Positions 978 through 7,000 of a stretch of 7,000 nucleotides of DNA are shown one piece after another; position 1 is the first letter of the stretch, and each line of letters starts with the position of its first letter. Position numbers and translations under genes: made by a program. Where the stretch lies: assembly GCF_018420025.1 (NCBI RefSeq), contig NZ_JAEDAM010000064.1, positions 1 to 7,000 on the forward strand, written 5' to 3'. The stretch is from Candidatus Vampirococcus lugosii (GTDB lineage Bacteria > Patescibacteriota > Gracilibacteria > Absconditabacterales > Absconditicoccaceae). The notes beneath the pieces are model-generated. The model was not told the DNA's origin and ran no database searches. It saw nothing but the letters and a program-made list of their open reading frames with translations.

Positions 978-1220
978 ATACAGAAATATTTTATATATTA
1001 TAAATAAACTATATTTATATACTTTTATATCAAAATTTCAATAGTATATAAAACTAATCTATAGCAAACCATTTCAAATATCCCACCAAATAATAAAATT
1101 TAATAAAAAATACACAAAAAATCACTTGAAAAAGATAAAAAAAATAATATAATTTAATTATTCAAAATTAATTAATAATTAATATTTAATCTTGAAAATT
1201 ATGAAAAAATGAGAAAATTT

Positions 1221-1245
1221 AATTGTGAATTGTGAATTGTGAATT
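1221..1245. repeat. Tandem heptanucleotide repeat (AATTGTG) x3 plus a partial fourth unit (AATT), in the uvrA/pilin divergent intergenic region
   Basis: Direct reading gives aattgtg aattgtg aattgtg aatt. It lies about 120-145 nt upstream of the pilin ATG (1366) and about 245 nt upstream of the uvrA ATG (977, opposite strand). Confidence 0.75.
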
Positions 1246-1339: not shown

Positions 1340-1365
1340 TATTTTAATATAATAAATAATTAGAT

Positions 1366-2631
1366 ATGAAAAAAAACAATAAATGATTTACATTAGTAGA
1401 AGTTGTGATAACAGTTTGAATTATCGCAATATTGGCGGTAGTAGGATGAATTAGTATTAGTATTTGGATAAGTAAAGCAAGGGATGCACAAGTGGTAAAC
1501 AATGTGCAAACTATAGCATGAGGACTTGAAAGCTATCATATGAAAAATTTTGAATTTCCTGTACCAGATGGTAATATTTTGCCTGATGATCATAAAAAAC
1601 GGGAACAATGAATAATATGATCTTGAGTGATCAAAAAATTATCAAGTTTTATTAATGTAAAAAATTTATCAAATTCTAATAAATATATTTATAGTACTTA
1701 TCAAATTTACGATCATTATCAAGTAATATGACTGTTGGAAAATGATGTTCAAATACAGGCATATGAATATATTATAGATAAAGCACATGCAAATACGGAT
1801 AAAATTGTTGAGCTATGAGATAAATGATATTATTCAAAATGAACCGTTGAAAATATTCCTATGATAATAAATGAAAATAATAAAACTTTAGTACTTGAAT
1901 GAAATGATTGAACTGATTGATGAACTACTTGAAATTATTCTGCTATAAATAATGATTGAACAAATATTTTGAATGGTAATCCTAATTTTAAATGAGTTAG
2001 TGATTTAACTCAAATATCAAAAAATACAAGTGAATATATAGAAAAAGGTGATAATGCAATTATAGAAATTGAAGAAGGTATATATCAATCTATTGATTGA
2101 AAATTTATTAAAATCACAGATTCAAGTACAGATAACGATCTATGATATACAATCATAACTTATAATCCAAGTAATATATCATGAGAACCTGATTTTAGTG
2201 CTTGAAAAAATTCTTTTAATATAAATTGATCAGATCCAAAAATGGAATGGTGATGTAATTGAAAAAAAGTTAGTGATAATGGAAGTGATGGTAAAATAAA
2301 AACTGAAGAAATAGTAAATTTTCACGATGATAATAATAATTTTAGTTGATATAATTATACTTCTTATACAGGAGATTATTCAGATATATGATGTAACTCA
2401 GGCAATGATTGAAATGTAGGAGCTATATTTTGTAACAATTTAGTTTTTAATTGACATAATAATTGGTATTTGCCGTCAAGTAGTGAGTTAAATATAATTA
2501 AAAAACAAAACCTTTTAATTGAAAATCGCTACTTTTCTGCTTCCGAATATTGAAATAATTGAGCTTGGACAAATAACAGTGCTCATTCTAAAAATTATGA
2601 TCGTTATATCCGCTGTATTCGTAGAGAATAA
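1366..2631 (+). CDS. Modular type IV pilin / pseudopilin-like protein (421 aa): prepilin N-terminal cleavage/methylation signal, Gly/Asn/Asp-rich middle region, and DUF1566 (Lcl C-terminal / FISUMP-like) C-terminal module
   Basis: I checked the frame codon by codon from ATG 1366 to TAA 2629-2631. There is no TAA/TAG, and 31 in-frame TGA by hand count. The N-terminus MKKNNK-G-FTLVEVVITVGIIAILAVVGGISISIWISKARDAQ is the class III signal, with Gly at -1 (TGA 1384-1386), Phe at +1, Glu at +5 (1399-1401) and a hydrophobic alpha-1 helix. The C-terminus ..AIFCNNLVFNGHNNWYLPSSSELNIIKKQ..YFSASEY..AWTNN..YIRCIRRE matches the DUF1566 pattern C-x-n-l-x-x-G-x-x-x-W-R/Y-LP-x-x-x-EL ... Y-W/x-S ... vRCvR. 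Four Cys in the distal third could form two disulfides. Confidence 0.82.
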
Positions 2632-2651
2632 ATTTTAAAACTCAAGCAAAC

Positions 2652-2697
2652 AAAAAAAGACACTAGTTTAATAAACTTAAAAACCGTGTCTTTTTTT
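2652..2697. terminator. Candidate bidirectional intrinsic terminator between the convergent pilin and CPBP genes
   Basis: AAAAAAAGACAC (2652-2663) pairs with GTGTCTTTTTTT (2686-2697), giving an A-tract/T-tract-flanked stem that can act on both strands. The weaknesses are a GC core of only 5 bp and a long 22-nt loop. Confidence 0.4.
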
Positions 2698-2730
2698 GTT
2701 TTATATAAAAAACCAAATAAAATATATTAC

Positions 2731-3399
2731 TTAAAAATAAAACATTTTAATTCATATCAAAATGATAGCAATATCAGCAAAAACATGAACAATATAACCA
2801 TTAATTATAGTTTCATTTTTTTCATTAACATATGAAAATATTAAACCACCTATGATAAGTCATATTAATGCCAATAAAAAATTATACCAAGCAAACCATG
2901 TAGCAAATATTCCAACATGATAAATTGAAAACAAAAATGAATTAAAAAAATATTTTCAAAATCTATTTTTTACAGTATGATAGAACACAAAGCCTCTAAA
3001 GAAAAATTCTTCAAAAAAAGCATTAAAAAATGTAATATATATCGCAACAAATGGAAAAATCATTTTATTGACTCATACATTATTTTCTAATTCTTCAGCT
3101 ATGAAACCTAAATCTATTGTATTACTCAATATTACATATGTAATAATAATAGTTACTAATACTAAAATAGATAAAATCCAAGTAAGTCATCTTAAATTAT
3201 TTTTTTTAATATTTATCAAAGATAAAGTTCTTTCTTTACCCAATATAATTATTGGTATTACCAAAAACAATAATATTTTAAATAATATTTTATATAATAT
3301 AAAAACATTCAAAATTTGTTCTAATACATACAAAACTCCTACTGCAAACAATATATATAGTATTAAAATAATTTTATTATTATATATTCTATCTTCCAT
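2731..3399 (-). CDS. CPBP family (CAAX protease / Abi, Rce1-like) glutamic-type intramembrane metalloprotease, 222 aa
   Basis: ATG at 3399..3397 and TAA at 2733..2731, with 5 in-frame TGA; walked codon by codon. The protein is polytopic and hydrophobic. It carries the three CPBP signature motifs: EEFFFRG (2992-3012, EExxxR), FSIYH (His at 2917-2919, FxxxH) and HVFAD (2773-2787, HxxxD/N). Confidence 0.82.
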
Positions 3400-3516: not shown

Positions 3517-4959
3517 TTATACAGACTCTTCTTGTTTATCATTTATTTGTTTAAAATTATTTACTATATTATTAAATTTTTCTTCTCATACTGTTTTTTT
3601 AAATGTTTCAACCATAGCTCAAATATTAGCTCATCAATTTGAAGAAAACAAATCCATAAAACTATTTATTCAACTAGTTCAATTATCACCAGTAGATACA
3701 ATCTTTATATCTGCATTATTTAATGCACGAGCTTTTTCAAGATCTACAACTTGTGATATATCAGCTTCAAGCTGTTTAATCATAAAGTTAAGAGCTTCAG
3801 GTTTAAATTTATTCAAAGCTTCTGCCATTTCTTCTTTATTTCTAGCTTCAGCTGTTCATATATAATTAACTTCTCTTGCTTTAGCTTCAGCAAGTGATTG
3901 TATTCTTTTTGCTTCTGCTTCAGCCAATGATTCAATTTTTAATCTTTCAGCTTCTGCATTTGTTTCAGTAATATATTTTTCAGATTCAACTTCTATTTTT
4001 CTTCTATCTCTTATTTCTTCAGCCTTTATTATTTCTGTTCTCTTACTTATTTCTGCATTTCTTTCTTCTTCAAGTTGTTCTATCATCAATTCTTTTTCTC
4101 TAGTAGATTTTTGAGCTTCAAACATTTTTTGTCTTGAAATTTCTTTTTTTAAGTTCAATTCTTCTTCTTTTTCAATTTCAAAATTTTCTGTTACTCTTTC
4201 ATTTTCTAATTTCTTTAATCAAGACTCTCTTTGTGAATCATATTCAACAATATCAGCTTTTGATTTAGCTTCAGCCGCTCTAGCTCTAGCTTCCGATTCT
4301 TTATTTTCTTTTTCAATAATAGTTCTTTTTTGATTTTCCGAAACTTCAATTTGAGATTCAGATTCAATTTCAGATCTTTTTTTCTGCATAATATTACTTA
4401 TTACTCTACTTTCTCAAGTTTCAGGATCTCTAATATCCATAAATTCTACATTTTTTAAATCAACTCACCAACTTACAACAGAGTCCAAAACTTCTTTATA
4501 GAATTCTTCTTTTATTTCAACTCTAGATTCCATTATTTCTATAATATCTTTTGATGCAAGAGTTTTTCTTATTACTCATTTTAAAGTTTCATTTAAATGT
4601 TCTTTAAGTTCTTCTATATGAAATATTTTTTGTGCTGCAATTTCAGGTTCTTTTATTACAAAAAATGCAGTAACATCTACTATAAAAGGAACTTTTCATG
4701 AATCATATGCTTTATATTGATCAACTTTTATTGTAAAGATACTAATAGGAAGTTTTTGAACTTCTACTCATAAAGCAGGAACCCAAGATGGCCAATCTAT
4801 ATATACATTTCATGCATCAAATCATCTACCATATGCTTTTGATGTTTTTTTTCATTGTGCTATATGAACTTCATTTGTAGGAACTACTTTTCTTAAATTA
4901 GACAATATTACAATAAACACAATAAATGCAACTAAACCACCAACTCAAAAAATAGTCAT
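3517..4959 (-). CDS. floT: Flotillin-family SPFH/Band-7 protein (FloT/YqiK-like), 480 aa: N-terminal TM, SPFH domain, long Glu/Ala/Lys coiled coil, flotillin C-terminal region
   Basis: ATG at 4959..4957 and TAA at 3519..3517. I checked every codon and found 17 in-frame TGA and no TAA/TAG. The N-terminal TM is TIFGVGGLVAFIVFIVILSNL, followed by LRKVVPTNEVHIAQG...VSWGVDLKNVEFMDIRDP (SPFH core). The EA-rich coiled coil ..ETNAEAERLKIESLAEAEAKRIQSLAEAKAREV.. and the tail ..ALNKFKPEALNFMIKQL..IKIVSTGDNGTSG.. resemble the B. subtilis FloT C-terminus (..GLAEAEAKEKIAAAFEQYG..ITVVDTGGSG..). ORF-track fragment 3856..4158 is an internal piece of this gene. Confidence 0.88.
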
Positions 4960-5003
4960 TTTTAATACTATTTAATAATTAAATTTATTTATTATTTATC
5001 TTT

Positions 5004-5570
5004 TTAAGATAAATTAATATCTATTAATTCTAACTTTTTAAGCTCAACTCAAACATTTTTGATAGAAGATAAGATTTCTTTATAAAGTTTTTCTTTTATA
5101 TCAAGTTTAAAATTACTTTTTTCAAAGAAATCTGTAATATCTACTTTCAAAATACTTTTTGATGAAAAAACTTTTTGTAATATTAATTCTATCATTCTCT
5201 GCAAATACTTTTCTAACTCATTCATATCAAAAGATATATTTGATATAAGTTCAATATCTTTTACAACAAAATATACATTAAGATCTATTATTAGATTTAC
5301 TTTTAGTGAATCATATGTAGTATATTTTTTAAATACTATTGTAAATACATCAAGATTAAATTTAGCAACTTCTATTCATAAAAAAGGAATCCAACCTGGC
5401 CATTCCAAATAAGTATCTCAATGAATAAGTCATTTTCAATAATATTTAAATCCATATCTATATTGTATTAAATGGGCTTCATTTGCAGGAACTACTCTTC
5501 TCAAATTATACAATATCAATACATATGGTAACACAAAAAATAAAACAAAAAGTATAATAATATTAATCAT
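5004..5570 (-). CDS. Short single-TM SPFH-domain protein (188 aa); a paralog of the N-terminal third of the downstream flotillin that lacks the coiled-coil/flotillin tail
   Basis: ATG at 5570..5568 and TAA at 5006..5004, with 5 in-frame TGA; every codon checked. MINIIILFVLFFVLPYVLILYNLRRVVPANEAHLIQ..YYGKGLIHGDTYLEWPGWIPFLGIEV..FTIV..YTTYDS.KV..IIDL..YFVVKD...KEKLYKEILSSIKNVGVELKKLELIDINLS aligns colinearly with flotillin residues ~20-200 (LRKVVPTNEVHIAQ..AYGRGFDAGNVYIDWPSWVPALGVEV..FTIK..YKAYDS.KV..IVDV..FFVIKE...KEEFYKEVLDSVVSWGVDLKNVEFMDIRDP). Confidence 0.75.
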
Positions 5571-5572
5571 TT

Positions 5573-6751
5573 TTATTGTTTTTTATCTTCTTCTTTATCC
5601 ATAATTTCAACTAATTCTTTTTCTTGAGATTCTTCATCTGACAAAGTATTTTTAAGTTCATTTGCATCATCTTTATTCATAACTTTTATATCATCTAATT
5701 TAGCTCTAGCCTCTCCAAATAACTTTCTTTCTTCTTTAGCTTCTCTTGCAACTTGTTCTCTAAAATTTTCTATTTCATCAAAATGATTTTTTAATTTAGT
5801 AACATTTTCCATAAATACTGTTGTAGAAACTACTGGTTTAGATGCAACTTCTTCAGCTTTTTTACTTCATTCTATTGCTTTATCAGTAAGATCACTTGAC
5901 ATTTTATCTATTGTACTACCCATCACATCCATAGCTTTCATACTTGCATCTATAGATTTTTGACTAGAAGTTTCTATTATTGCAGTAGATAAAAGTGTTT
6001 TAAAAATTGGTCTTGATGAATTCATAGATAAAGCAAGTTTAGTAGCACTATCAAGTCTCATTTCTAATCTCTTTTTTGCCATTTCCAAATTACCGATCAA
6101 AACTACTATATTTGTCAAAAAGAACTCAACATTTTGTTTAAACATTGATAATTTTCTTTTTTCATCTTCATTTTCTTCATTATCAATTCTTCCTTGAAGT
6201 TCATCAACTTTTTTTCATATATAATCTTTGTAAGAAACTATAGAACCTAAATTCTCTTCTACACCATCCAAAAAATTATTTTGCATATCTATAGAAGTAT
6301 TTATTGAATAATATGCTTGATCAAATCATGAAAATATTGTTTCAATTTTTCATTCTACAGTTTTCATATTGAAACTCATATCATCTTTAGCATTATCAAT
6401 TTTAGTCACTACAGATCATATTCATGGTATAGATTTCATAAATTTCATAAAACTTCAATCATTATCTATAATATCTCTATAAACTCATTGAACTTCTCAA
6501 TTCATTTTTTCTAATTCATCAGAAACAGACATAATAGGATCACCATCTATTACTTTGGCAGTTTTGGAAACAATATCATCTATTGGAGCTGTAATTCTTT
6601 CTCATATACTTCTAAAATTCTTTGCTTCTTCAAAAGCTTTTTGAATTTCTTTTGTTTCTTCTTCTGACAATTCAATTTGCTTTATTTCTGTGTTTGCCAA
6701 ATTATTAGATAAATTATTATTTTGAATATTATCTTTAACATTATTTTCCAT
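5573..6751 (-). CDS. telA: TelA/YaaN/KlaA-family protein (toxic anion resistance protein family), 392 aa
   Basis: ATG at 6751..6749, with an in-frame TAA three codons upstream. TAA at 5575..5573, and 10 in-frame TGA; walked codon by codon. ORF-track fragments 5573..5812 and 5867..6145 are in the same frame and are joined through TGA 5867-5869. The protein is all-helical and acidic. Its layout resembles B. subtilis YaaN/TelA as recalled: a central ..SIDMQNNFLDGVEENLGSIVSYKDYIGKKVDELQ.. (compare ..NALISDNKLLEQLYEKNKEYF..YIAAGELKLEEL..), then ..LEMRLDSATKLALSMNSSRPIFKTLLSTAIIETSSQKSIDA.., then a C-terminal charged helix. This is a family-level call made without an HMM. Confidence 0.68.
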
Positions 6752-6787
6752 GCTTTTTTAATTTTTTTATAATATAAATATAGATAT

Positions 6788-6815
6788 ATTATATTACTTT
6801 TTTTTAAAAAATCAA
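6788..6815 (-). promoter_or_regulatory. Candidate sigma-70-type promoter of the TelA-SPFH-flotillin operon
   Basis: On the minus strand: TTGATT (6815..6810), a 16-nt spacer (ttttaaaaaaaagtaa), then TATAAT (6793..6788). The -10 ends 36 nt upstream of the ATG at 6751. Such hexamers arise easily by chance in DNA this AT-rich. Confidence 0.3.
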
Positions 6816-6918
6816 ATTAATATGGATATTTTTTCATTTTTGGGATAAAAAATTTAAAGAAAGGACAGATTTTAATTATTATTAGAGTACTTTTAAATCA
6901 ATAAAAAAATGTCCATAA

Positions 6919-6963
6919 ATTACTGCAATATCTTGTCTGAAATTACTAACCTTCTGCAGTAAT
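6919..6963. repeat. 9-bp inverted repeat ATTACTGCA-N27-TGCAGTAAT, with a third direct copy of AAATTACT in the spacer
   Basis: attactgca (6919-6927) and tgcagtaat (6955-6963) are exact reverse complements. aaattact occurs at 6917-6924 and again at 6940-6947. The repeat lies 170-210 nt upstream of the telA-like start. All three minus-strand frames hit a stop within the last ~12 nt of the window, so an upstream minus-strand gene could end near 6990. In that case this could be its terminator. Confidence 0.4.
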
Positions 6964-7000
6964 AAAGATAAAAAAAGCTTGAAAAGTTAATTAAGAACTA

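What the first reader, a model, noticed from the sequence alone, without database searches (positions are those of the whole stretch)
1366..2631. Orphan 421-aa modular type IV pilin carrying a DUF1566/Lcl-like putative binding module: candidate host-adhesion pilin
The N-terminus is a textbook prepilin signal (K-G|FTLVE plus a hydrophobic helix). At 421 aa, however, the protein is about three times the size of an ordinary pilin. It ends in a Cys-containing module with the DUF1566 signature (..FCNNLVFNGHNNWYLPSSSEL..YFSASEY..IRCIRRE). That fold occurs in the Legionella Lcl adhesin C-terminus and in the Fibrobacter paralogous family, and it resembles lectin-like domains. Modular pilins that graft an adhesive module onto a pilin module are known from Streptococcus sanguinis (PilB, PilC). 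Type IV pili have been implicated in CPR episymbiont attachment to hosts. A pilin displaying a DUF1566-like module in a table-25 organism would be a plausible host-recognition determinant. The gene has no pil assembly genes beside it, being flanked by uvrA and a CPBP protease. Annotation under table 11 would miss it, and table 4 would mistranslate its 31 Gly as Trp.
Basis: partly seen in the sequence, partly recalled or inferred. Interest (0 to 1): 0.7.

Follow-up and report, generated by a model that had tools for sequence, protein, structure and literature searches.

The report
Lectin-tipped modular pilin of Vampirococcus
This gene from the predatory ultra-small bacterium Vampirococcus lugosii encodes a pilus subunit fused to a lectin-like binding domain, which makes it a plausible prey-attachment protein, but this type of fusion has already been catalogued and the gene is already annotated as a prepilin.

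Summary
Window 1366-2631 (+) is an intact 421-aa ORF once TGA is read as Gly (31 TGA codons). It is identical to an NCBI protein of Candidatus Vampirococcus lugosii annotated as a prepilin-type protein.

The prepilin signal (MKKNNKG|FTLVE) passes the Pfam N_methyl and TIGR02532 cut-offs. Residues 3-65 match only solved pilins and pseudopilins.

The C-terminal 135 residues score below Pfam's Lcl_C/DUF1566 cut-off (21.5 vs 34.9 bits). Homology is nevertheless firm:
- 259 HMMER hits, and the relatives tested pass the cut-off.
- A profile of the domain retrieves only PF07603 proteins, and the Legionella Lcl structure 8Q4E at E 4.5e-18.
- An AlphaFold model (pLDDT 94) has 8Q4E as its best solved match.

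A 710-aa paralogue shares the 181-residue pilin module (71% identity) but carries PARCEL/DUF285 repeats instead. So one carrier module has two payloads.

The architecture is not new. Eight other pilin plus Lcl_C proteins were found, one of them in a Parcubacteria-like genome. A 2021 census of modular pilins already lists this combination.

Three things remain untested: the pilin head fold, a position at the pilus tip, and binding to prey. Verdict: a correctly read new member of a known kind, of moderate interest.

The parts
1126..1153 (+). Promoter-like site (TTGAAA, 16-nt spacer, TATAAT; 11 of 12 matches) in the 390-bp intergenic region upstream of the pilin gene
   Evidence: This is weak evidence: in this 23% GC sequence, shuffled controls give as many sites (23 found, 20 expected).
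1366..2631 (+). Complete coding sequence of the 421-aa modular type IV pilin (table 25, 31 TGA = Gly codons, stop TAA at 2629-2631)
   Evidence: It is 100% identical to the NCBI protein P0001 from Ca. Vampirococcus lugosii.
1366..1386 (+). Class III signal-peptide leader MKKNNKG (7 aa). Cleavage is predicted after Gly7, which is encoded by TGA.
   Evidence: Read from the sequence. PF07963 N_methyl scores 30.8 bits against a cut-off of 21.2. TIGR02532 scores 25.1 against 16.3.
1387..1560 (+). Pilin alpha-1 helix, mature residues F1 to about 58 (protein residues 8-65), with Glu at mature position 5 (FTLVE)
   Evidence: Residues 3-65 align only to solved type IV pilins and pseudopilins: Geobacter PilA-N at E 7.6e-6, PilE1, GspG and PpdD. 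AF2 predicts a helix over residues 10-55, confident (pLDDT above 50) over roughly the first 35 residues.
1561..1908 (+). Rest of the pilin carrier module (residues 66-181). The whole module (residues 1-181) is shared with the paralogue P0002.
   Evidence: 71% identity over residues 3-181, and 73% over residues 66-181 alone. It has no similarity to the heads of other pilin plus Lcl_C proteins. The fold is not verified.
1909..2226 (+). Middle region (residues 182-287): acidic (pI 4.05), rich in Gly, Asn, Asp and Thr, with no detectable homologue. It is a presumed linker or stalk.
   Evidence: In the exhaustive HMMER search almost no hit extends into this region.
2227..2628 (+). C-terminal Lcl_C/DUF1566-type, C-type-lectin-like module (residues 288-421) with Cys at 297, 343, 356 and 417. 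This is the putative ligand-binding payload.
   Evidence: Pfam Lcl_C E 3e-4, 21.5 bits, below the cut-off. There are 259 homologues, and those tested pass the cut-off. The profile matches 8q4e at E 4.5e-18 and retrieves only PF07603 proteins. The AF2 model has pLDDT 94.2. Foldseek's best match is 8q4e at probability 0.98. The query keeps 24 of the 30 most conserved columns.
2648..2706 (+). Intrinsic-terminator-like hairpin (16-bp stem) with a U-run, 17 nt after the stop codon
   Evidence: RNA fold of -18.6 kcal/mol, z = -5.7, and 0 of 200 shuffles fold as well. The consensus scan missed it, probably because the region enclosed by the main stem is longer than the scan's 8-nt loop limit.

Best explanation
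The gene encodes a modular type IV pilin with four parts.
1. A 7-residue leader ending in Gly, expected to be removed by the prepilin peptidase.
2. A hydrophobic alpha-1 helix with Glu5, expected to insert the subunit into the core of a type IV filament.
3. A roughly 115-residue pilin head. Together with the leader and alpha-1 it forms a 'carrier' module that the organism also uses in a second pilin.
4. An acidic linker of about 100 residues followed by a 135-residue Lcl_C/DUF1566 domain, which has a C-type-lectin-like fold.

Shown here: the signal and alpha-1; the homology and fold of the C-terminal domain; the carrier module shared with a paralogue that carries PARCEL/DUF285 repeats; and the stand-alone transcription-unit layout, which rests on a weak promoter-like site and a strong terminator-like hairpin.

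Inferred by analogy with Streptococcus sanguinis PilB and PilC: the bulky payload is compatible only, or mainly, with a position at the pilus tip as a low-abundance minor pilin. There it would present a binding surface to the outside, most likely to a surface glycan or protein of the prey bacterium (Halochromatium). Retraction of the pilus would then pull the predator onto the prey. The ligand is unknown.
For: - Signal and alpha-1: PF07963 and TIGR02532 score above their cut-offs. PDB matches for residues 3-65 are all pilins or pseudopilins.
- Payload: 259 HMMER hits to residues 288-421. The homologues tested pass the Lcl_C gathering cut-off. The profile matches the Lcl C-terminal domain 8Q4E at E 4.5e-18, and all listed hits to it in the 5.8-billion-protein database carry PF07603. 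The AF2 model has pLDDT 94.2 and pTM 0.89, and its best PDB match is 8q4e at probability 0.98.
- Known binding roles of the fold: the Lcl C-terminal domain is C-type-lectin-like and binds glycosaminoglycans (PMC11162425). DUF1566 domains are ligand-binding targets diversified by DGRs (PMC5758913).
- Carrier and payload logic: paralogue P0002 shares residues 1-181 at 71% identity, then carries 11 PARCEL repeats.
- Recurrence of the architecture: eight other N_methyl plus Lcl_C proteins were found. One is in a Parcubacteria-like genome. The combination is listed among modular pilins in PMC8179133 Dataset S1 (identifier mapping).
Against: - The alpha-beta fold of the pilin head (residues 66-181) was not confirmed. 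The single-sequence AF2 model has pLDDT 34.
- The Pfam Lcl_C score of the protein itself is below the gathering cut-off. Six of the 30 most conserved family columns are substituted.
- The structural match to Lcl covers only 66 columns (TM 0.35-0.37, E 0.038). The N-terminal half of the module has no solved counterpart.
- The module is mildly acidic (pI 5.6), unlike the basic GAG-binding face of Lcl, so the Lcl ligand class cannot be carried over.
- No pil genes are adjacent.
- There is no expression, localisation or binding data, and no close orthologues for a test of selection or variability.
Confidence: 0.6

Rival explanations
1. It is a surface-anchored or secreted lectin that uses the prepilin signal only for export and membrane anchoring. 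This would resemble the archaeal 'bindosome' sugar-binding proteins or T2SS-type pseudopilins. It would sit in the cell envelope and would not be built into an extended retractile pilus. There it could mediate the cell-to-cell stacking seen in Vampirococcus piles, or the general stickiness of the cell surface.
For: The gene is isolated from pil genes and appears to have its own terminator. The 100-residue linker plus 135-residue domain is bulky. The genome paper stresses a sticky, fibrous surface and stacked cells (PMC8080830). TIGR01710 (GspG, a pseudopilin) is the second-best NCBIfam match, though far below its cut-off.
Against: Glu5 and a full-length alpha-1 helix typical of polymerising pilins are retained. 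The characterised modular pilins (PilB, PilC) are incorporated into pili (PMC8179133). Orphan location is common for minor pilin genes; this last point is my own knowledge and was not tested here.
Confidence: 0.2
2. It is a minor pilin of a competence (DNA-uptake) pilus. The Lcl_C module would capture extracellular or prey DNA, or would dock the pilus where prey DNA is released, and hand it on to ComEA and ComEC.
For: In a Parcubacteria-like metagenomic genome, the N_methyl plus Lcl_C pilin gene lies directly downstream of comEC on the same strand. Lcl binds polyanions (PMC11162425). The genome paper proposes T4P plus ComEC/ComEA for uptake of host DNA. ComGC, ComGD and ComGE models give weak hits to the N-terminus.
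Against: The module is net acidic (13 K+R against 16 D+E, pI 5.6), which argues against general DNA binding. The comEC linkage was seen at one genomic locus only; another pilin plus Lcl_C gene, P0238, has no such neighbours. No comEC gene is near the window gene. The Com-model hits cover only the generic N-terminal motif.
Confidence: 0.1
3. It is the variable protein of a diversity-generating retroelement. DUF1566-type domains form one recognised class of DGR targets, and the C-terminal residues would then be hypermutated to track changes in the prey surface.
For: DUF1566/Fib_succ_major domains make up DGR target class 'd' (CLec2), about 14% of surveyed DGRs (PMC5758913). The C-terminal end of the module is Asn-rich.
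Against: The window contains no second copy (template repeat) of the gene's 3' end and no reverse-transcriptase ORF. The genome paper mentions no retroelement, reverse transcriptase or DGR. The Asn richness is explained by 23% GC: the module is 17% Asn against 8-14% in the other parts of the same protein.
Confidence: 0.04

Closest known systems
Streptococcus sanguinis modular minor pilins PilB (pilin plus vWA) and PilC (pilin plus concanavalin-A-like lectin)
   Same: All have a class III signal peptide with a 7-residue leader ending in Gly, followed by a small pilin module and then a C-terminal domain that is not specific to pilus biology. PilB and PilC bind host proteins and glycans respectively (PMC8179133, PMC9934059). 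Both organisms are described as having a Gram-positive-type envelope (PMC8080830 for Vampirococcus).
   Different: The payload fold differs: Lcl_C/C-type-lectin-like here, against vWA or ConA-like. Here a roughly 100-residue orphan region separates carrier and payload, whereas PilB has a short loop. The gene is not in a pil locus. Nothing has been tested experimentally.
IPR012902 - IPR011460 (N_methyl plus DUF1566) modular pilins in the census of Raynaud et al. 2021, and the metagenomic proteins P0006, P0017, P0020, P0025, P0036, P0134, P0238 and P0266
   Same: The two-signature architecture is the same. The census lists 7 proteins with one DUF1566 domain and 2 with two (mapping). P0006's Lcl_C domain is 49% identical to the query's. 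At least one of these proteins comes from a CPR (Parcubacteria-like) genome.
   Different: The pilin heads are unrelated beyond alpha-1, so these look like independent grafts or have diverged beyond recognition. The query is longer, uses genetic code 25, and scores below the Pfam cut-off for DUF1566, so automated pipelines do not count it in this class.
Legionella pneumophila Lcl adhesin, C-terminal domain (PDB 8Q4E)
   Same: The DUF1566 core is homologous: profile E 4.5e-18 and Foldseek probability 0.98. Both are extracellular adhesin-type proteins with a C-type-lectin-like fold (PMC11162425).
   Different: Lcl is a T2SS-secreted trimer with collagen-like repeats and an N-terminal amphipathic helix. 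It has no disulfides and a basic surface that binds GAGs. The query has no collagen repeats and a pilin N-terminus. It has four Cys, three of them in columns that are Cys in 79-90% of homologues. It also has an extra N-terminal helical sub-domain and is net acidic.
Paralogue P0002 of V. lugosii (710 aa, pilin plus PARCEL/DUF285 repeats, annotated 'BspA family leucine-rich repeat surface protein')
   Same: The carrier pilin module is 71% identical over residues 1-181, and the similarity ends sharply at the motif TLVLEGND. Both are modular pilins from the same genome.
   Different: The payload is entirely different: 11 PARCEL repeats (TIGR02167, 224 bits). The pilin plus DUF285 architecture is also in the 2021 census (IPR012902 - IPR005046, 9 proteins).

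Membership tests
Type IV pilin (class III signal peptide proteins; PF07963 / TIGR02532 / IPR012902) | A short, hydrophilic leader ending in Gly, followed by about 21 hydrophobic residues with Glu at mature position 5 | tested here: met
   The sequence reads MKKNNKG|FTLVEVVITVGIIAILAVVGG. PF07963 scores 30.8 bits against 21.2. TIGR02532 scores 25.1 against 16.3.
Type IV pilin (class III signal peptide proteins; PF07963 / TIGR02532 / IPR012902) | An extended N-terminal alpha-1 helix of about 50 residues | tested here: met
   Residues 3-65 align along their whole length to the alpha-1 of solved pilins. AF2 predicts a helix at residues 10-55, confident (pLDDT above 50) over roughly the first 35 residues.
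Type IV pilin (class III signal peptide proteins; PF07963 / TIGR02532 / IPR012902) | A globular head in which alpha-1C packs on an antiparallel beta-sheet | tested here: inconclusive
   The single-sequence AF2 model has pLDDT below 50 for residues 36-421. Only one homologue of the head exists.
Type IV pilin (class III signal peptide proteins; PF07963 / TIGR02532 / IPR012902) | Processing by a prepilin peptidase and assembly by a T4P machinery encoded in the same genome | not testable with these tools
[quoted passage not shown]
Modular pilin in the sense of Raynaud et al. 2021 | [quoted passage not shown] | tested here: met
   N_methyl is at residues 2-26 and an Lcl_C-type domain at residues 288-421. 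The definition is from PMC8179133.
Lcl_C / DUF1566 (PF07603, IPR011460) | Significant sequence homology to family members | tested here: met
   phmmer E-values reach 1e-20 against proteins that themselves pass the PF07603 cut-off. A profile that includes the query retrieves 177 proteins; of the 120 listed, all but one carry PF07603. The same profile matches 8q4e at E 4.5e-18.
Lcl_C / DUF1566 (PF07603, IPR011460) | A score at or above Pfam's gathering threshold. This is an operational annotation criterion, not a biological feature. | tested here: not met
   The score is 21.5 bits against 34.9, E 3e-4, over residues 355-410 only. This is why databases list only PF07963 for this protein. I therefore call it a divergent homologue of the family and not a threshold-passing Pfam member.
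Lcl_C / DUF1566 (PF07603, IPR011460) | The fold of the DUF1566 core as in the Lcl C-terminal domain (C-type-lectin-like) | tested here: met
   The AF2 model has pLDDT 94.2. Foldseek's best match is 8q4e_A at probability 0.98 and rmsd 2.9 A, but over only 66 columns, with TM 0.35-0.37 and E 0.038. C-type-lectin-like domains follow at noise level.
Lcl_C / DUF1566 (PF07603, IPR011460) | Conserved core residues (D-W-x-L-P, E, Y-W-S-S-x-E, K, R-x-x-R) | tested here: met
   The query matches 24 of the 30 columns that are at least 75% conserved, including W367, L369, P370, E374, Y389, E394, K409, R416 and R419. The substitutions are N312K, A352G, D366N, W390F, S392A and F405S.
Lcl adhesin family (collagen-like repeat plus DUF1566) | A collagen-like GXY repeat region and an N-terminal amphipathic anchoring helix | tested here: not met
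   The sequence has no GXY repeat tract and no Collagen Pfam hit. It is not a member; only the C-terminal domain is shared.
DGR variable protein (CLec2 / DUF1566 class) | A template repeat near-identical to the 3' end of the gene, and a reverse transcriptase nearby | tested here: not met
   The window has no repeat of bases ~2450-2628 and no RT-like ORF. Only 7 kb could be examined.

The most novel reading that the evidence does not exclude
Vampirococcus uses a cassette system for prey recognition. One conserved carrier pilin module (residues 1-181, 71% identical between the paralogues, with a sharp breakpoint) is recombined with interchangeable payloads: an Lcl_C lectin-like domain here and PARCEL repeats in P0002. 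The resulting alternative pilus-tip adhesins would determine which bacteria this CPR predator can seize. If so, it would give the first molecular handle on host specificity in Absconditabacteria.
Probability: 0.25. Interest if true: 0.6.

Novelty: new member of a known kind. Interest (0 to 1): 0.35.

Why it matters
How CPR episymbionts and predators recognise and hold their specific hosts is largely unknown. Type IV pili are the main suspects, but the actual binding determinants have not been named. This protein and its paralogue are concrete, clonable candidates in the only microscopically characterised predatory member of the Absconditabacteria. The recombinant C-terminal module could be tested directly for binding to Halochromatium cells.

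The case also shows a systematic blind spot. AT-rich, code-25 genomes push real domains below Pfam thresholds, so censuses of modular pilins undercount them in exactly these lineages.

Conceptually it adds nothing beyond the established 'carrier pilin plus grafted effector' principle.

Tried and rejected
- Full-length AlphaFold without an alignment gave pLDDT 34 and was unusable beyond the N-terminal helix. The pilin head fold therefore stays unverified.
- Genomic context of P0001 and P0002: neither protein is in the exact-match contig index.
- A scan of GTDB genomes with the carrier-module alignment returned only an unrelated Glaciimonas pilin N-terminus and not the V. lugosii genome. I could not list the pil genes or further paralogues myself.
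- A metagenome scan for close relatives returned only a 29%-identical Lcl_C domain. Variability or selection on the payload among strains cannot be assessed.
- A search of the genome paper's supplements for pil gene names found nothing.
- Cluster look-ups gave almost no taxonomy for the homologues. Taxonomy of one pilin plus Lcl_C locus was inferred indirectly from its ribosomal protein S7.
- The DGR reading was considered and rejected for lack of a template repeat or RT in the window.
- Membership of the Lcl collagen-like adhesin family was rejected because there are no collagen repeats.
- Table 4 (TGA = Trp) was rejected: TGA falls on conserved Gly columns and on the Gly at position -1 of the cleavage site.
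Full report
**1. What is in the sequence**

The window is 23% GC, and under table 11 it breaks into short ORFs. With only TAA and TAG as stops it resolves into six long genes. One of them is an open frame at 1360-2631 (+), whose first ATG is at 1366. It encodes 421 aa and contains 31 in-frame TGA codons, out of 42 Gly positions if TGA is read as Gly.

TGA = Gly, and not Trp, is supported by four observations:
- The TGA-encoded residues 296, 349 and 363 lie on alignment columns that are Gly in 33-35 of 38 homologues.
- A TGA supplies the Gly at position -1 of the prepilin cleavage site.
- TGA falls where E. coli UvrA has Gly in the neighbouring uvrA. This comparison is from my memory of the E. 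coli sequence; the uvrA identity itself is established at E 6.9e-80.
- The table-25 translation is 100% identical over its full length to an NCBI protein of Candidatus Vampirococcus lugosii named 'prepilin-type N-terminal cleavage/methylation domain-containing protein'. That genome was annotated with table 25 (PMC8080830).

The gene is not, however, unknown to annotation. Only its C-terminal domain is unlabelled.

**2. The N-terminus is a type IV pilin signal**

The sequence MKKNNKG|FTLVEVVITVGIIAILAVVGG has a 7-residue leader ending in Gly, Phe at +1 and Glu at +5. PF07963 scores 30.8 bits against a cut-off of 21.2, and TIGR02532 scores 25.1 against 16.3.

Searches of all PDB sequences, with the protein and with a profile of the shared module, return only pilins and pseudopilins: Geobacter PilA-N at E 7.6e-6, PilE1, GspG, PpdD and PAK pilin. 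These align through residues 3-65, the whole alpha-1 helix.

Beyond residue 65 there is no similarity to solved pilins. In my experience that is usual for pilin heads, but I did not test it. I could not verify the head fold: the single-sequence AlphaFold model is unusable (pLDDT 34), and I spent the second and last structure job on the C-terminal module.

**3. The C-terminal module is a divergent Lcl_C/DUF1566 domain**

On its own the protein scores 21.5 bits (E 3e-4) against PF07603, below the 34.9-bit gathering threshold. Four further lines of evidence establish homology:
- An exhaustive HMMER search with residues 182-421 against 1.84 billion representative proteins gave 259 hits at E <= 1e-3. 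All map to residues ~288-421. Many are giant proteins with up to 13-17 copies of the domain.
- All ten of the hits I tested match Lcl_C. Seven score above the cut-off, up to 53.6 bits.
- A 38-sequence alignment headed by the query (A2) matches the Legionella Lcl C-terminal domain (8Q4E) at E 4.5e-18. It retrieves 177 proteins from 5.8 billion, and all but one of the 120 listed carry PF07603.
- With that alignment AlphaFold gives a confident model (pLDDT 94.2, pTM 0.89). Its best solved match is 8q4e_A (Foldseek probability 0.98, rmsd 2.9 A), followed at noise level by C-type-lectin-like domains such as NKR-P1A, Ly49 and LOX-1.

Three limits apply:
- The structural match covers only 66 columns (TM 0.35-0.37, E 0.038). 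The N-terminal half of the module is a helical extension with the motif WGC...NT..IV.FHDD.NF.G..Y.Y.GDY.DIGC, and it has no solved counterpart.
- The query keeps 24 of the 30 most conserved columns. Three of its four Cys sit in columns that are Cys in 79-90% of homologues, and the fourth in a column that is Cys in 54%.
- Residues 182-287 have no homologue anywhere and are acidic and rich in Gly and Asn.

**4. What the fold is known to do**

The Lcl paper shows that the domain is C-type-lectin-like, forms a trimer, and binds sulphated glycosaminoglycans through a basic surface. [quoted passage not shown] DUF1566/Fib_succ_major domains are also one of the classes of ligand-binding targets diversified by DGRs (PMC5758913).

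The query module is net acidic (pI 5.6), so the Lcl ligand class cannot simply be carried over.

**5. A paralogue with the same carrier and a different payload**

Among 5.8 billion proteins, the only significant full-length relative is a 710-aa V. lugosii protein, P0002. It shares residues 1-181 at 71% identity, and the similarity stops abruptly after TLVLEGND. From there P0002 continues into 11 PARCEL/DUF285 repeats (TIGR02167, 224 bits).

This is the 'carrier module plus effector module' logic described for modular pilins. It is the strongest internal evidence that residues 1-181 form one functional unit and that the downstream parts are grafted payloads.

**6. The architecture recurs and is already catalogued**

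Eight other proteins combine a prepilin N-terminus with a C-terminal Lcl_C domain: P0006, P0017, P0020, P0025, P0036, P0134, P0238 and P0266. Their pilin heads are unrelated to the query's. That points to independent grafts, or to divergence beyond recognition.

One of these genes lies directly downstream of comEC, in a genome whose ribosomal protein S7 is closest to Zambryskibacteria, Parcubacteria and Patescibacteria sequences. Another has no informative neighbours.

Raynaud et al. 2021 surveyed InterPro and found more than 1,200 modular pilins in 264 architectures, many of them from CPR bacteria. Their Dataset S1 lists:
- IPR012902 - IPR011460: 7 proteins, plus 2 with the domain doubled.
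- IPR012902 - IPR005046: 9 proteins.
- IPR012902 - IPR011871: 40 proteins.

IPR011460 = DUF1566 and IPR005046 = DUF285 are confirmed from other papers. IPR011871 = Fib_succ_major rests on my memory only.

**7. Context**

The gene sits between uvrA (1-977, -) and a CPBP/Rce1-like protease gene (2731-3399, -). A 390-bp intergenic region upstream holds one good but statistically unremarkable promoter-like site. A strong terminator-like hairpin lies 17 nt after the stop codon (z = -5.7). The gene therefore looks monocistronic.

No pil genes are in the window. [quoted passage not shown] It does not mention modular pilins.

The window holds no DGR template repeat or reverse transcriptase, and no tRNA or Rfam match.

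**8. Mechanism and rivals**

The most likely reading, at about 0.6 for the whole chain, is as follows. The leader is cleaved, and alpha-1 inserts the subunit into a type IV filament. Because of its bulk, the protein sits at the tip as a minor pilin, as modelled for PilB. The Lcl_C module binds a surface molecule of the prey, and retraction brings the two cells together.

The architecture alone I hold at about 0.9. Tip display and prey binding are inferences by analogy.

The rivals are:
- An envelope-anchored lectin that uses the pilin signal only for export, perhaps mediating the stacking of Vampirococcus cells (0.2).
- A minor pilin of a competence pilus. The single comEC linkage supports this; the acidic module argues against it (0.1).
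- A DGR target (0.04).

**9. Verdict**

What the tools add:
- Proof of the genetic code.
- Proof of the domain homology despite a sub-threshold Pfam score.
- The paralogue with a swapped payload.
- The finding that the architecture recurs in other CPR genomes and is already catalogued.

This makes the gene a new member of a known kind. It is a useful experimental candidate for prey recognition in a predatory CPR bacterium, but it would not surprise a pilus or CPR specialist. Interest 0.35.

Noticed in passing
window 1221-1245: There are 3.5 tandem copies of the heptamer AATTGTG in the intergenic region between uvrA and the pilin gene, about 120 nt upstream of the start codon. This could be a regulator-binding site or chance in AT-rich DNA.
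   Followed up: no
window 3517-6751 (- strand): Three tightly packed genes look like an operon. They encode a 480-aa flotillin-like SPFH protein (3517-4959), a 188-aa SPFH protein (5004-5570) and a 392-aa coiled-coil protein with no family match (5573-6751). The two SPFH N-termini are paralogous (DNA repeats D13 and D15).
   Followed up: partly
window 1366-2631: TGA encodes 31 of the gene's 42 glycines (74%), so the reassigned codon is the preferred Gly codon in this 23% GC genome. Three of these TGAs fall on Gly columns conserved across the family, which gives an internal proof of the code.
   Followed up: yes
L002 7553-10915: In a Parcubacteria-like metagenomic genome, a 304-aa N_methyl plus Lcl_C pilin gene follows comEC (DUF4131 + Competence + Lactamase_B) on the same strand, with a 95-nt gap. 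This hints at a possible link between this class of pilin and DNA uptake.
   Followed up: partly
window 2227-2430 (protein residues 288-355); P0003, P0004: The query's Lcl_C domain belongs to a sub-type with an N-terminal helical extension (motif WGC..NT..IV.FHDD.NF.G..YY.Y.GDY.DIGC) that has no solved structural counterpart. The same sub-type is repeated up to 13-17 times in giant metagenomic proteins of 2,466-3,693 aa.
   Followed up: partly
window 6752-7000: A 250-bp AT-rich non-coding stretch at the window's end has no tRNA or Rfam match. Its nature is unknown.
   Followed up: partly
PDB 4eps: The domain profile also matches the C-terminus (residues 428-502) of the 510-aa 'hypothetical protein' 4EPS at E 7.7e-5. 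From memory this may be a Bacteroides fimbrial-type protein, which would be a second case of this domain on a pilus. I did not verify that.
   Followed up: no
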